Shown here: positions 15,001 through 18,000 of the stretch, in pieces
Position numbering within the stretch: the first letter of the stretch is position 1
How the letters are laid out: the number at the start of each line of letters is the position of its first letter
IMG/VR virus record: IMGVR_UViG_2671180846_000018
DNA length: 18,561 nucleotides
Reading direction: 5' to 3' (one strand)
Source: a virus
Lineage: Duplodnaviria; Heunggongvirae; Uroviricota; Caudoviricetes
Program-made: the position numbers

Positions 15001-18000
15001 AGTTGATTATTGAAAATCAAAAGTCATTTAAACAATAATGATACCCAGCAAGAGATTTCTTATTTTAACTCATAGATCAGACAGTCAACGATTTCTAAAC
15101 CATTTACCATAGAATTAGAAACGCGAACTTTACCATCGTTGACTCTAGCAAATCCTTTTAACATTTTATAAACAAAAGCTGAATCCCCCTTAGCCTCAAT
15201 TGCTTCTAATGGTATCGGCTTATACTTTTTTGATATGCTATTTCTATTTATCTCACTGATTTTTCTATATATTTCTGCCGGCCCACGTTCTGAGAAGTCA
15301 CTGATAACTAAAATATATCTCCAAGATAGATCTGGGTAATAAAACCACATTGCAGCATCAATAGTTAAATTCTGTAACTTGAGTTTTTTTAACAAAAATT
15401 GACCTGAGAATTCCATATCTTTTGTCAACTCTCTGCCGATTACCAGTGTGCTTTTACCCATTTCAAAACTCCAGAATTTTGGTCACCTACAGCATCAAAC
15501 AATTGTTCGGCCATAGCTTTACTTATGTTATTGTCGTATCTAAATTGCTCGCTCCAGTCTTTAACGACCGACCAGTTAATCTCCAACGAAACATCATTTT
15601 TTGCGTCAGCAATCAAAATTTGATGTAAGTTGGCAATTTTGAGAAGTTGCGACAAATCATGAGTATATGAATCATTTACGACTTTTTTGTTTGGAAACTC
15701 ATGTTGTAAAAATGACTTGGCAATACAGGCCTTCAATGCACATTCAACTGCATACCCACAAAGATAATATGCACCATGAAAAAAGCCATGATCAAGCAAG
15801 CATTTGGCCTCATTAAGCCTAGTGTCAGATAATGCTTCAAGGTCGTTTTTATTCATACAATTATAACTTGAATTATCCTAATTTTTATGATTATACCCTT
15901 ATCAGGTATGATGTAGGAACTGAAAACAATATTGGATATCATTTTCGGTATTTCTCTGCAAATTCCAGCCCACAGGATCTCGGTGTACAATCTGTCGCTG
16001 ATCGCGCAAATTTAGGGTCAATCACTTCATTTTTTGCATCAAACCCTCACTAACATCGAACGATTATAGTACAAGTAGTGTTCTTGACTTCTCATTAAAC
16101 CGTCAGCATTCAATTAATTACAAAATACTAGCGGCATTTCTCTCCCGCAACTTTATTACAGCCGTTCAGAACGTAAATGCGTCAATACTCGACTCCACTT
16201 ATCATCCTGCCACGGCCGGAATTTTACATGTGCCGTTTCTCTGGCAAGGATTGCCTGTGCCTTATTGAGTATCCGGGGATATTCTTGTTCGATTGAAGTG
16301 AAGCGACCGGCTTCGCGGTGTTCTGCTACCTGAAGAAGCGGAGTGACGTTTTGGCAAGCGGTTAACATTGTGTCACTTGCCCGCCATAACCAAGCAAGTG
16401 TGCAAAGTTCGTTATCAGTGAATTGTTTTGTGATTGGGGATTGTTGAATTTCTCGATCGAGAATATCCAGCACCCAGCGGCGGAATTCTTTGGCCACAGG
16501 AGTGCGGGCGAACATGGCGATCAGATGGGCGCCACGGAGGGAGAAAATGCGAGTCTTCTTACGATAATTTCCTGAGGTCGTTGATTCGACGACCTGAGAC
16601 ATTCCGTCAGTAAACTCATCAATATTTTTGTTGTAGATGTCGGTTACTGCTTTGGTGCTGGCATATTTTAATGCTGCCGCCAATTCTTTGCTGGTAAACC
16701 AGATCTGGTTGTTGTGATTTATAGGAGTGAATTTTACATCGCGGAATGCGAGCTGAGTGACCATAGCGATAATCTCGTTTTGAATTTGAGCTATCACCAC
16801 CGACGACGCCAATCGACTGGTGGTGGACTGTGCAAGGTTGGCGTAACCGGTCAAAACGAAATCCGGCGCTTCCGAAGAAGCCCTCACACAGCCCACCATA
16901 ATTTTTGTGTAGACGTGCACTGCGCATAAAAAAACCGCGAACGCGGTTATGCGTCGTTTTGATGTCCGGGACGCCAATCCCGTGTGCCGATTTTGCGGCA
17001 ACGCACAGAATATAGCGCCGGATAAATAATGTCGTCAACCCTTGCATATGGGGGGCGCGATGATCACTACTACCACCATAATCGCTCCAACTGTTGCAAC
17101 TACTTTAGGCTAAGACATCACGATTTCCATATCACCTTTAGCCGCCAGACAAACAGAGACTCCCTGTTCTTGGCTGCCAAAAACACCGAATGCAAAAAAT
17201 CGCAGGTGTATTTCTGCATCTGTGGAGGGAGAAGAGAGTTTGGATTGTATGTGCGCATAAACGTCCCCGTTTAGCGCAGAAGTCACCGTAGTTGTTCATA
17301 TTCTGATGACATGATAATTTCCTATTGAATAGAAAAAATTAACACGACTCATTCTTATGACTGGAAAAAGCAATCATGCTAATAATCATTGTTGTTCCAG
17401 TTCCAAATGCAGCGAAATAATCACCAATATTTTTTCTACCGGTTTCGACTTTGATGCTATATTCTGCTAACACCTAACTAACACTACGTTTCACACAGCA
17501 ATTACATGGAAATAACATGACTATCAAAGCGACTGACATAGAGATTCTTCATCGTTATGCTGAAGGGGTAATGGAACGTTCTAACCATCATGCAAAAAAT
17601 GTTGGTGCAGCCGCTCTTACATTGCTAGGAGGTGTTATCTGGAAAGCCCTGCCCGGATCAATCGAGATAAGAACGTATAACGGAAGTCTTGCAAATATGG
17701 TGTGGTGGCAAAGCGAAAGAACATTAAAAAATTATGCAATCTCATACAACCATAATTCATGTGAAATTGAAATGAGAGATGAATCAGTCAAAGGTGCTGT
17801 ATTATTTAGCATTTCCAACGAAACCACTCCAGAAAAAATATTATCACAGCTTTCTGAGCTTTAATTAAAGGCGGTGCTAACACCGCCCATACCATTACTC
17901 CACATCTTACGCAACTTGATAATTATGCTCTATTAAATACCCACAATATTTCATCAATGCATGGGTCAGCTACAAAATGTTTACCGTGGTAATTCCTGTT

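What the first reader, a model, noticed from the sequence alone, without database searches (positions are those of the whole stretch)
15060..15856. AT-rich two-gene operon: HEPN-like protein plus overlapping unrecognised partner, inserted in the early-right region
Two minus-strand ORFs (138 aa and 133 aa) overlap by 22 nt, with the partner's GGAG RBS inside the first gene, so they are probably co-translated. The first has a HEPN-like signature (GAYYLCGYAVECALKA helix, THDL motif), but I see neither a canonical R-x4-6-H catalytic motif nor a minimal nucleotidyltransferase partner, so this is not a textbook HEPN/MNT pair. The segment is visibly AT-rich against a roughly balanced phage backbone (not computed), and sits where lambda carries ren and other lambdoid phages carry exclusion genes. 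HEPN proteins are common in abortive-infection and toxin-antitoxin systems, so this is a plausible uncharacterised prophage defence or addiction module.
Basis: partly seen in the sequence, partly recalled or inferred. Interest (0 to 1): 0.8.

Follow-up and report, generated by a model that had tools for sequence, protein, structure and literature searches.

The report
HEPN gene pair with unnamed partner
A small AT-rich two-gene cassette in an E. coli lambdoid prophage encodes a non-canonical HEPN (RNase-type) protein and an obligate, previously unnamed partner protein; the same overlapping pair is spread across many bacterial phyla and looks like an uncharacterised toxin-antitoxin-type module, but no function has been shown.

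Summary
Two minus-strand genes (138 aa, 15440-15856; 133 aa, 15060-15461) overlap by 22 nt in a cassette of 34.5% GC, against 52% in the flanking nin genes.

Gene 1 is a genuine Pfam HEPN protein (PF05168). It lacks the His of R-x4-6-H but has invariant R106-Y107, H66 and E38. This is the "alternative histidine" variant already described for AF0298-like HEPN-T proteins and AbiV.

The pair, including the exact 22-nt overlap, is conserved from E. coli to Acidobacteriota and Planctomycetota (83/88 loci). It sits among unrelated housekeeping genes, and also in prophage nin regions and on small plasmids beside other TA modules.

It is not a HEPN/MNT pair, HepS, AbiV or PADLOC candidate PDC-M28. The best reading is a new variant of HEPN toxin-antitoxin module carried as prophage cargo. 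Toxicity, RNase activity and phage defence are all untested.

The parts
15440..15856 (-). Gene A: 138-aa stand-alone HEPN protein (RefSeq WP_001038620.1). It belongs to the PF05168/HEPN-T clade with a non-canonical site: invariant R106-Y107, H66, E38 and K42, and no His at R+5..7.
   Evidence: ORF; Pfam HEPN above gathering score; AF2 pLDDT 94.7, all-helical; Foldseek best hits are classical HEPN structures; column statistics; RefSeq annotation.
15060..15461 (-). Gene B: 133-aa partner (WP_000520500.1), a member of a large unnamed alpha/beta family. Invariant residues are G20, L27, W39, G60, Y65, R113 and D126, with a conserved C-terminal beta-hairpin R-x6-NG-x4-D-x3-Y.
   Evidence: ORF; no Pfam/NCBIfam/PADLOC match; PHROG 5760, function unknown; family size; AF2 pLDDT 91.9; alignments.
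15440..15472 (-). Translational-coupling junction: GGAG (15469-15472), the partner ATG (15459-15461) and the 22-nt overlap with the 3' end of the HEPN gene.
   Evidence: Sequence. A start codon lies exactly 22 nt before the end of gene A in 83/88 loci. The SD match is much stronger before B than before A.
15890..15919 (-). Candidate cassette promoter: perfect -10 TATAAT (15890-15895), 18-nt spacer and weak -35 TTCCTA (15914-15919). It ends 34 nt before the HEPN ATG, and no Shine-Dalgarno site precedes that ATG.
   Evidence: Sequence. TATAAT is invariant in 12 copies from at least three phage backbones, while the surrounding DNA diverges. The consensus scanner did not call it because the -35 is weak. 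Promoter activity is inferred, not shown.
15045..15930 (-). Approximate extent of the mobile AT-rich cassette (promoter-like element plus both genes).
   Evidence: Similarity between copies in different backbones begins about 70 nt upstream of the ATG and ends within about 20-60 nt after the B stop codon. GC is 34.5%.

Best explanation
This is a compact, horizontally acquired two-gene cassette of about 0.9 kb. It works as a toxin-antitoxin-type HEPN module and is carried as cargo (a 'moron') in the accessory slot between the antirepressor-like gene and orf33-ninB of a lambdoid prophage.

Proposed mechanism:
- Gene A encodes a small HEPN-T-clade protein. It is predicted to be an RNase that uses the alternative active site (R106 plus H66, helped by E38) seen in AF0298-like HEPNs and AbiV.
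- Gene B encodes its obligate protein partner. B is made by translational coupling from a strong internal ribosome-binding site, in at least equal amount.
- B is proposed to bind and hold the HEPN protein inactive.
- When the partner is depleted or displaced (phage shut-off of host expression, loss of the element), the HEPN protein would cut RNA and arrest growth. The result would be abortive infection/exclusion for the lysogen or addiction for the element.

Shown here: the gene architecture; HEPN membership and the motif variant; the obligate pairing and conserved overlap across phyla; the expression-signal asymmetry; the cassette boundaries; the mobile-element contexts; and the absence of nucleotidyltransferase chemistry in the partner.

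Inferred only: RNase activity, toxicity, neutralisation by B, the trigger, and any anti-phage effect.
For: - HEPN membership: Pfam PF05168 27.8 bits > GA 22; confident helical model; best structural neighbours are ST0689, TT1696, TM0613 and AF0298.
- Active-site variant: R106, Y107, H66, E38 and K42 are invariant in 65/65 sequences, with no canonical His. This matches the alternative site described in PMC3710099. AbiV, which shares that variant according to that paper, is an experimentally shown RNase (bioRxiv 10.1101/2024.05.05.592566). HEPN proteins lacking the motif can still be toxic (PMC3710099).
- Obligate pairing: 82/88 loci fetched by A have B directly downstream, and 4 of the 6 exceptions are contig ends. 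66 of 71 informative loci fetched by B have A.
- Conserved overlap: a start codon lies exactly 22 nt before the end of A in 83/88 loci.
- Expression asymmetry: median SD-antiSD energy is -6.0 before B and -2.6 kcal/mol before A, p=2e-10.
- Conservation asymmetry: A is about 50% identical across phyla and B about 25%, as is usual for toxin versus antitoxin.
- Orphans: decayed or orphan B copies exist (5), whereas an intact A without B was never seen where there was room.
- Autonomy and mobility: 148 neighbouring ORFs in 37 loci hit 113 Pfam families with none recurrent, so there is no third gene. Two copies occur in one MAG (L055, L058). The pair is found in prophage nin regions of E. coli and Klebsiella, at an Acinetobacter prophage end next to AbiH, in 38 IMG/VR contigs, and on a 13.9-kb plasmid beside two BrnT/BrnA modules.
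- Own promoter-like element: a -10 hexamer is conserved.
Against: - No experiment exists on either family: literature and accession searches were empty.
- The canonical HEPN catalytic His is missing, so the protein could be non-catalytic.
- About 50% identity of A across phyla is unusually high for a toxin and could point to a conserved cellular role.
- The partner has no DNA-binding domain, so classical type II autoregulation is not evident.
- Environmental neighbourhoods are housekeeping and not enriched for defence genes.
- In Klebsiella prophages the pair is packed tightly into the early-right operon, so expression in the lysogen is not assured.
- The promoter is only a conserved -10 with a poor -35.
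- The orphan asymmetry rests on small numbers.
Confidence: 0.5

Rival explanations
1. A non-toxic heteromeric complex. The HEPN protein is a non-catalytic RNA- or nucleotide-binding subunit (as proposed for MtlR-type and NTase-fused HEPN domains). Together with the partner it performs a regulatory or RNA-handling function that is useful in many bacteria and is merely hitch-hiking in the prophage.
For: - The canonical His is absent in all members.
- A is conserved at about 50% identity across phyla.
- Neighbours in environmental genomes are mostly housekeeping genes.
- PMC3710099 notes non-catalytic HEPN domains.
Against: - Phyletic distribution is patchy and insertion sites look random, with no conserved neighbours.
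- The pair is AT-rich foreign DNA and occurs on prophages and small plasmids next to TA modules.
- R106, H66 and E38 are invariant, in the arrangement proposed as an alternative active site.
- All of this fits a selfish or mobile module better than a housekeeping function.
Confidence: 0.2
2. A sensor-effector abortive-infection system rather than a TA pair. The partner is not an inhibitor but the sensor or adaptor. It would either recognise a phage product or dock the HEPN nuclease on a target such as the ribosome, and the complex would be activated by infection.
For: - Prophage HEPN defences activated by phage structural proteins exist: HepS (PMC13043305) and Tha (PMC11087260).
- The partner's weak structural neighbours include ribosome-associated small alpha/beta proteins: RimP, RbfA, RsfS, uS3 and the Era KH domain.
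- AbiV cleaves rRNA.
- The partner evolves faster than the HEPN protein, as sensors often do.
Against: - Most copies are in non-phage, non-defence contexts.
- The strict coupling and the SD asymmetry favouring B are the classic antitoxin-excess arrangement.
- Orphan B copies exist, whereas an intact A without B was not seen where there was room.
Confidence: 0.15
3. A phage lytic-cycle function. The pair would be expressed only from pR after induction, as part of the nin region, and would serve the phage itself (host RNA takeover, counter-defence or exclusion during lytic growth).
For: - The pair is on the same strand as the early-right operon in both E. coli and Klebsiella prophages.
- In Klebsiella it is packed tightly behind the preceding genes.
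- No strong promoter was called by the scanner.
Against: - The great majority of family members are chromosomal in bacteria, with no phage genes nearby.
- A conserved -10 element travels with the cassette.
- Only 1 of 50,697 deposited phage genomes carries a homologue.
Confidence: 0.07
4. A textbook HEPN/MNT (HepT/MntA, type VII) toxin-antitoxin system, in which the partner is a nucleotidyltransferase that AMPylates a tyrosine of the HEPN toxin.
For: - An invariant Tyr (Y107) sits next to the invariant Arg. This recalls the modified Tyr of HepT.
Against: - No member of the partner family matches any NTase Pfam model, even at E<=10.
- There is no G-[GS] or [DE]h[DE]h motif, and D126 is the only invariant acidic residue.
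- hhalign against Pfam-verified MNTs gives 0.15% probability, equal to the controls.
- The gene order is reversed relative to MNT-HEPN dyads (PMC3710099).
- The HEPN protein lacks R-x4-6-H.
Confidence: 0.04

Closest known systems
Classical stand-alone HEPN proteins of the HEPN-T clade (Pfam PF05168; e.g. AF0298/2hsb, TM0613/1o3u, ST0689/1wol, TT1696/1ufb)
   Same: - Gene A passes the Pfam threshold.
- These proteins are its best structural neighbours.
- Like the AF0298-type members, it keeps the Arg, lacks the His of R-x4-6-H, and has a second invariant His between helices 2 and 3 plus an acidic residue on helix 2.
   Different: - It forms a tight, separate subfamily: about 50% identity across phyla, and no PDB sequence match even with a profile.
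- Its partner is not an MNT, and the HEPN gene comes first.
HEPN/MNT (HepT-MntA) type II/VII toxin-antitoxin systems
   Same: - A two-gene, mobile, widely scattered module with a small HEPN protein.
- An invariant Tyr lies beside the catalytic Arg.
- The partner's fold faintly resembles MNTs.
   Different: - The partner has no NTase sequence signature or catalytic residues.
- The gene order is reversed.
- The HEPN protein belongs to the PF05168 clade and not to DUF86, and lacks R-x4-6-H.
AbiV (Lactococcus; HEPN RNase with RNA antitoxin abiV2)
   Same: - A HEPN protein which, according to PMC3710099, shares the 'alternative histidine' variant.
- The toxin gene comes first.
- AbiV has shown RNase activity and an abortive-infection role.
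   Different: - Structural similarity is only weak (Foldseek prob 0.44, TM 0.40), and there is no PADLOC AbiV hit.
- The AbiV antitoxin acts as an RNA, whereas gene B here is a conserved, confidently folded protein.
RnlA-RnlB / LsoA-LsoB (E. coli HEPN toxin-antitoxin anti-phage systems)
   Same: - Functional analogy only (from established knowledge and PMC8266594, listed): a HEPN RNase toxin is encoded upstream of a small protein antitoxin.
- The antitoxin's loss after phage shut-off activates the toxin.
   Different: - RnlA is a much larger multi-domain protein.
- No sequence or fold match to either component was seen in any search here.
HepS (Gifsy-1 prophage solo HEPN anticodon nuclease; Nature 2026, PMC13043305)
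   Same: A small HEPN protein carried in the accessory-gene slot of the early-right region of a lambdoid prophage.
   Different: - HepS has a canonical R100-x4-H105 motif.
- It has no partner gene and is activated by the tail-tip protein J.
- It did not appear among the sequence or fold matches.
PADLOC candidate system PDC-M28 (untested 'guilt-by-embedding' candidate)
   Same: All 65 HEPN-family members match the 138-position PDC-M28A profile.
   Different: - The matches are weak (best E 7.5e-12; window protein 1.8e-7, 29.7 bits).
- No partner-family member matches any PDC-M28 component.
- PDC systems have no experimental support.

Membership tests
HEPN domain, Pfam PF05168 (HEPN-T clade) | Score above the curated Pfam gathering threshold | tested here: met
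   27.8 bits against a cut-off of 22, E 3e-6, covering residues 12-118. Most homologues carry precomputed PF05168.
HEPN domain, Pfam PF05168 (HEPN-T clade) | All-helical HEPN bundle fold similar to solved members | tested here: met
   AF2 pLDDT 94.7, all helices. The top Foldseek PDB hits are 1wol, 1ufb, 1o3u, 2q00 and 2hsb, with prob 0.94-1.0 and TM 0.46-0.62, although E-values are only about 0.1-0.4.
HEPN domain, catalytic (RNase) subset | Canonical R-x4-6-H motif at the end of helix 3 | tested here: not met
   R106 is invariant, but His is absent at R+5..R+7 in 65/65 sequences. His occurs at R+4 in only 9/65.
HEPN-T AF0298-like / AbiV-like 'alternative active site' variant (PMC3710099) | Arg retained, a second strongly conserved His N-terminal to it in the helix2-helix3 insert, and an acidic residue on helix 2 | tested here: met
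   R106, H66 (residues 47-88 lie between helix 26-46 and helix 89-107) and E38 are each 65/65. Definition.
HEPN/MNT (HepT-MntA) toxin-antitoxin | Partner is a Pol-beta-type minimal nucleotidyltransferase (PF01909/PF18765) | tested here: not met
   No NTase Pfam hit for any of the 65 partner-family members at E<=10. hhalign against Pfam-verified MNTs gives 0.15% probability, equal to the controls.
HEPN/MNT (HepT-MntA) toxin-antitoxin | NTase catalytic signature G-[GS] ... [DE]-h-[DE]-h plus a third carboxylate | tested here: not met
   D126 is the only invariant acidic residue. There is no G/S at the end of strand 1 and no acidic pair on strand 2.
HEPN/MNT (HepT-MntA) toxin-antitoxin | Partner has the NTase fold | tested here: inconclusive
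HEPN/MNT (HepT-MntA) toxin-antitoxin | MNT (antitoxin) gene 5' of the HEPN gene | tested here: not met
   The HEPN gene is 5' in the window and in all 82 paired loci. The rule comes from PMC3710099.
AbiV system | HEPN protein of the AbiV family with an RNA antitoxin (abiV2) | tested here: not met
   There is no PADLOC AbiV hit at E<=1, and Foldseek to 9bj6 gives prob 0.44, TM 0.40. The downstream gene encodes a conserved protein with a confident fold. AbiV properties.
HepS | Solo HEPN with canonical R-x4-H and no conserved partner gene | tested here: not met
   The motif is absent and the partner is present in 82/88 loci. HepS properties.
PADLOC PDC-M28 candidate system | Both components (A and its partner) match the system's models | tested here: not met
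   Component A matches only weakly. No PDC-M28 hit for any of the 65 partner sequences.
Type II-like toxin-antitoxin module (generic) | Two small co-transcribed, translationally coupled genes that are mobile, patchily distributed and autonomous | tested here: met
   Conserved 22-nt overlap; no conserved neighbours; present on prophages, plasmids and chromosomes of many phyla; two copies in one MAG.
Type II-like toxin-antitoxin module (generic) | One product is toxic, and the other neutralises it by direct binding | not testable with these tools
   This needs expression and toxicity assays and co-purification. A complex prediction could not be run here.
Anti-phage defence system | Enrichment next to known defence genes, or an experimental phage-resistance phenotype | tested here: inconclusive
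   Prophage cargo position and AbiH next door in one Acinetobacter prophage point towards defence. However, only a handful of PADLOC hits were found among 148 neighbours in 37 environmental loci, and no phenotype has been published.

The most novel reading that the evidence does not exclude
The pair defines a previously unrecognised, pan-bacterial class of HEPN conflict module. A HEPN-T RNase using the alternative R...H site would be controlled by a catalytically dead, nucleotidyltransferase-derived (or ribosome-docking) partner protein. That would be a new antitoxin or sensor family of more than 3,000 sequence clusters, providing abortive-infection immunity to STEC, Klebsiella and Acinetobacter lysogens.
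Probability: 0.15. Interest if true: 0.75.

Novelty: new variant of a known kind. Interest (0 to 1): 0.55.

Why it matters
If the module is a functional HEPN toxin with a new protein partner, three things follow.
- It would add a large, phylum-spanning family to the toxin-antitoxin and abortive-infection repertoire: about 3,200 partner clusters at 50% identity and at least 561 species genomes.
- It would give a function to a protein family that currently has no name in Pfam, NCBIfam or PADLOC.
- It would provide a tractable E. coli example for testing whether HEPN proteins that lack the canonical histidine are active nucleases.

It is also carried by prophages of clinically important STEC O26/O111 and of Klebsiella, where prophage cargo can shape phage susceptibility and prophage stability. 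None of this has been shown, so for now it is a well-defined candidate and not a discovery.

Tried and rejected
1. Textbook HEPN/MNT: rejected. The partner has no NTase Pfam hit in 65 members, no catalytic motif and an hhalign probability equal to controls, and the gene order is reversed.
2. HepS, AbiV, RnlAB and PDC-M28 membership: rejected.
3. Sequence searches of the PDB with single proteins and with 11- or 65-sequence profiles found nothing meaningful.
4. NCBIfam: no hit. PHROGs: families of unknown function only.
5. Fusions as functional clues:
   - The longer partner homologues have only low-complexity tails.
   - One HEPN-partner fusion ORF (L060) comes from a MAG and may be an indel error.
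6. A conserved third gene or defence-island context: not found.
7. Leaderless-mRNA idea for the second TATAAT (15860-15865): dropped, because it lies only 3 nt before the ATG.
8. The hairpin downstream of gene B as the cassette's terminator: rejected. It has no U-tract, and it belongs to the phage backbone, being present in phages without the cassette.
9. The afdb50 fold library was unavailable.
10. The first metagenome scan with the broad partner alignment failed for lack of a conserved stretch; a narrower alignment worked.
11. Literature searches for the accessions, 'PDC-M28', and HEPN+ninB returned nothing.
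Full report
**1. The observation**

The window contains two minus-strand ORFs, 15440-15856 (138 aa) and 15060-15461 (133 aa), which overlap by 22 nt.
- GGAG lies at 15469-15472, 7 nt before the second ATG and inside the first gene.
The cassette (15045-15930) is 34.5% GC against 48.4% for the window and 51.9% for the neighbouring nin genes. 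Third-position GC is 0.35 and 0.31 against 0.63 for ninB.

**2. Genomic setting**

The 1.25-kb segment is 100% identical in about 186 complete E. coli genomes. Many of the best matches listed are O26:H11 or O111 strains. RefSeq annotates the genes as 'HEPN domain-containing protein' (WP_001038620.1) and 'hypothetical protein' (WP_000520500.1).

The host element is a DLP12-type lambdoid prophage at tRNA-Arg. The gene order on the early-right (pR) strand is: replication O/P-like genes, an opposite-strand small gene, a Bro-N/P22AR antirepressor-like gene, HEPN, partner, orf33, ybcN(ninB), ninE, ybcO, rusA, ylcG, Q.

Related phages share the DNA immediately downstream of the pair but carry other cargo, or nothing, in this slot.
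- Phage 82 has only the bare backbone element.
- Phages Turner and Lambda_4C10 carry an alpha/beta-hydrolase, a 508-aa hypothetical protein, an EmrE/QacE-like protein and a Ren-like exclusion protein.

**3. Gene A is a HEPN protein with a known non-canonical motif variant**

Evidence for membership:
- Pfam HEPN (PF05168) is matched above the gathering score, 27.8 against 22 bits.
- A 65-sequence alignment gives a confident all-helical model (pLDDT 94.7).
- Its best PDB neighbours are the classical stand-alone HEPN proteins ST0689, TT1696, TM0613, SSO P95883 and AF0298, with Foldseek probability 0.94-1.0 and TM about 0.5-0.6.
- No PDB sequence is detectable even with the family profile.

The motif:
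- In the alignment R13, Y31, Y35, E38, C39, K42, F54, P55, H66, W95, W101, R106 and Y107 are invariant.
- No sequence has His 5-7 residues after R106, so the canonical R-x4-6-H is indeed absent. Only 9/65 have His at R+4.
- This is not unprecedented. Anantharaman et al. 2013 (PMC3710099) describe AbiV and the AF0298-like HEPN-T proteins as lacking the His while keeping the Arg. [quoted passage not shown]
- R106 (end of helix 103-107), H66 (between helices 26-46 and 89-98) and E38 fit that description.
- AbiV has since been shown to be an RNase (bioRxiv 10.1101/2024.05.05.592566), and HEPN proteins lacking the motif can be toxic.
- I could not measure the R106-H66 distance, because model coordinates are not exposed.

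**4. Gene B defines a large unnamed family**

Word-based search found only 32 relatives in Enterobacteria and Acinetobacter. However, the contexts of distant HEPN homologues all showed a downstream, overlapping gene of 131-154 aa with no Pfam match, and these proteins align with the window's partner.
- A profile of them recovered 552 clusters at 90% identity.
- An exhaustive HMMER scan found 3,184 clusters at 50% identity with E<=1e-3 and 1,746 with E<=1e-10. Almost all are stand-alone proteins of 118-167 aa.
- No member matches any Pfam model, even at E<=10. No NCBIfam or PADLOC model matches. PHROG 5760 has no known function.
- The AF2 model is confident (pLDDT 91.9), with topology alpha-beta-beta-alpha-beta-alpha-beta-beta.
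- Invariant residues are G20, L27, W39, G60, Y65, R113 and D126. The most conserved segment is the C-terminal hairpin R113...N120-G121...D126...Y130.

**5. Is the partner a degenerate minimal nucleotidyltransferase?**

In favour:
- The Foldseek top hit is also 'nucleotidyltransferase-like' (E 0.037, prob 0.57), and MNT chains of HEPN-MNT complexes appear lower down.

Against:
- The scores are modest, and RimP, RbfA, RsfS, uS3 and BolA-type folds score similarly.
- The G-[GS] and [DE]h[DE]h catalytic signature is absent, and D126 is the only invariant acidic residue.
- hhalign against two Pfam-verified MNTs from the fetched loci gives 0.15% probability, identical to the negative controls. The MNT profile was thin, however.

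Conclusion: the partner is certainly not an active NTase. A distant structural derivation from MNTs is possible but unproven.

**6. The pair is an obligate, coupled, autonomous unit**

They include Acidobacteriota, Planctomycetota, Chloroflexota, Desulfobacterota, Bacteroidota, Verrucomicrobiota, Gemmatimonadota and Gammaproteobacteria, plus one archaeal MAG, at 45-55% identity to the E. coli protein.

From the HEPN side, in 88 loci:
- 82 have the partner directly downstream on the same strand.
- Four of the six exceptions are contig ends, one has a truncated partner, and one reads as a fused ORF.
- A start codon (68 ATG, 10 GTG, 5 TTG) lies exactly 22 nt before the end of the HEPN gene in 83/88 loci, so the HEPN tail W-x-K-x-x-W* overlies the partner's M-[AD]-x-x-x-LV.

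From the partner side:
- 66 of 79 metagenomic loci have the HEPN gene, and 8 lack enough upstream sequence to tell.
- 5 are orphan or decayed partners, one of them flanked by transposases.
- An intact HEPN gene without a partner was never seen where there was room for one. The numbers are small.

Translation signals:
- Shine-Dalgarno complementarity is much stronger before the partner than before the HEPN gene: median -6.0 against -2.6 kcal/mol, n=78, p=2e-10.
- In the window the values are -5.9 against -0.2.
- Part of this signal coincides with the invariant Gly129 codon.

Neighbourhood and mobility:
- The two nearest ORFs on each side in 37 environmental loci (148 ORFs) hit 113 different Pfam families, none more than three times, and most are housekeeping.
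- Only 2 are PIN domains, and there are only a few PADLOC hits. There is no conserved third gene and no defence-island signature.
- Mobile contexts do occur: nin regions of Klebsiella lambdoid prophages; the end of an Acinetobacter prophage next to umuDC and, in one case, AbiH; 38 IMG/VR contigs; one deposited Klebsiella phage; and five plasmids.
- One of those plasmids is a 13.9-kb Acinetobacter plasmid where the pair sits beside two BrnT/BrnA TA modules.
- One MAG has two copies (L055, L058).

**7. Cassette limits and expression signals**

I aligned copies whose HEPN proteins are 74-85% identical and which lie in different phage backbones.
- Similarity begins about 70 nt upstream of the ATG.
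- Within it, a perfect TATAAT (window 15890-15895, 34 nt before the ATG) is invariant in all 12 copies.
- The -35 is poor (TTCCTA or TTACAA at 18 nt), which is why the scanner did not call the site.
- No Shine-Dalgarno site precedes the HEPN ATG.
- Downstream, similarity resumes 20-60 nt after the partner's stop codon, in a backbone element that also exists in phages lacking the cassette.

The unit is therefore a cassette of about 0.9 kb that probably carries its own promoter. Promoter activity is inferred.

**8. Comparison with known systems**

- **HEPN/MNT (HepT/MntA):** not a member. The partner domain, catalytic motif, gene order and HEPN motif were all tested and not met.
- **AbiV:** shares the motif variant and toxin-first order, but AbiV's antitoxin is an RNA and the proteins are only weakly similar.
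- **HepS:** occupies an equivalent prophage slot, but it is a solo protein with a canonical motif and was not found among the matches.
- **PDC-M28:** its component A matches all family members weakly, but no partner-family member matches any PDC-M28 component, and the PDC candidates are untested.
- **RnlAB/LsoAB:** a functional analogy only (HEPN toxin first, labile protein antitoxin, anti-phage role).

Literature and accession searches found no study of either protein.

**9. Interpretation**

The best-supported reading (about 0.5) is a toxin-antitoxin-type module. A HEPN-T RNase with the alternative R...H site would be neutralised by a co-translated, more strongly translated protein partner, and the pair is carried as prophage or plasmid cargo that could give abortive infection or addiction.

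Rivals:
- a non-toxic RNA- or nucleotide-binding complex (0.2);
- a sensor-effector arrangement in which the partner senses or docks rather than inhibits (0.15);
- a lytic-cycle phage function (0.07);
- a true AMPylating HEPN/MNT system (0.04).

The architecture, conservation, family memberships and negative tests are shown. Toxicity, RNase activity, neutralisation, trigger and defence are inferred.

**10. Verdict**

It is a well-delimited, widely distributed and apparently uncharacterised variant of a known kind of system (HEPN toxin modules), with a new partner family.

- the first gene is already annotated as HEPN;
- its motif variant is described in the literature;
- the TA-like logic is conventional.

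The unnamed partner family and the strikingly conserved 22-nt overlap still make it a worthwhile experimental target. Interest 0.55.

Noticed in passing
window 14958-15020 (minus strand): A backbone element lies just downstream of the cassette. It consists of promoter-like TTGATT-N17-CATAAT (15020-14992), followed by a perfect 12-bp hairpin (14990-14979 / 14969-14958) with dG -20 kcal/mol and z -5.45. The stem sequence differs between phage lineages but stays complementary (GTCACCGGAG/CTCCGGTGAC versus GTTGTCAG/CTGACAAC). Phage 82 depositors annotated the same element as putative -35/-10 plus 'possible regulator-binding site' upstream of orf33-ninB. There is no U-tract, so it is not a classical terminator, and its role is unknown.
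   Followed up: partly
window 17517-17864 (+): An opposite-strand 115-aa gene sits in a second AT-rich island (38% GC) between the replication genes and the antirepressor-like gene. It matches Pfam VCH_CASS14, an integron cassette protein family (E 5.7e-20). It is likely another independently acquired cargo gene of unknown function.
   Followed up: partly
window 15857-15889 and family-wide: The HEPN gene has no Shine-Dalgarno sequence (-0.2 kcal/mol in the window), and weak SD is typical across the family. The partner, by contrast, has a strong internal SD. This suggests deliberately low translation of the first gene.
   Followed up: yes
L060:7953-8777: In a Bryobacterales MAG the HEPN and partner reading frames are fused into one 274-aa ORF. 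This is either a natural fusion, which would be Rosetta-stone support for a physical interaction, or a 1-nt assembly indel.
   Followed up: no
L046 (Planctomycetota MAG); L155, L180, L182, L211, L212 (metagenome contigs): Decayed copies exist. One locus has an intact HEPN gene with a truncated partner (possibly an assembly error). Five loci have an orphan or remnant partner without a HEPN gene, and in one of them (L155) the partner is flanked by transposase genes.
   Followed up: partly
L027:7109-7438: In a Cyclobacteriaceae MAG a genuine minimal nucleotidyltransferase gene (Pfam Polbeta/NTP_transf_2) lies about 560 nt upstream of the HEPN-partner pair. This suggests a local cluster of TA-type modules.
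   Followed up: partly
L008:7884-9233 and L007/L008:5883-7675: At the end of an Acinetobacter prophage (after the tail fibre, holin and lysozyme genes) the pair sits next to umuDC-like genes. In one strain a 449-aa AbiH-family protein is also there, forming a small cargo or defence cluster.
   Followed up: no
window 9606-9947 (+) and 11694-12776 (+): Classic lambdoid morons on the opposite strand, both near AT-rich troughs: a Bor/Iss-type lipoprotein and an OmpC/NmpC-type porin. RefSeq annotates them as iss and ompC in the identical prophage.
   Followed up: partly
window 16156-17001 (-): The mechanical ORF is 281 aa from a TTG start, but RefSeq calls a 202-aa protein (window 16156-16764) with Bro-N plus P22AR C-terminal domains. 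The N-terminal 80 codons are probably not translated.
   Followed up: no
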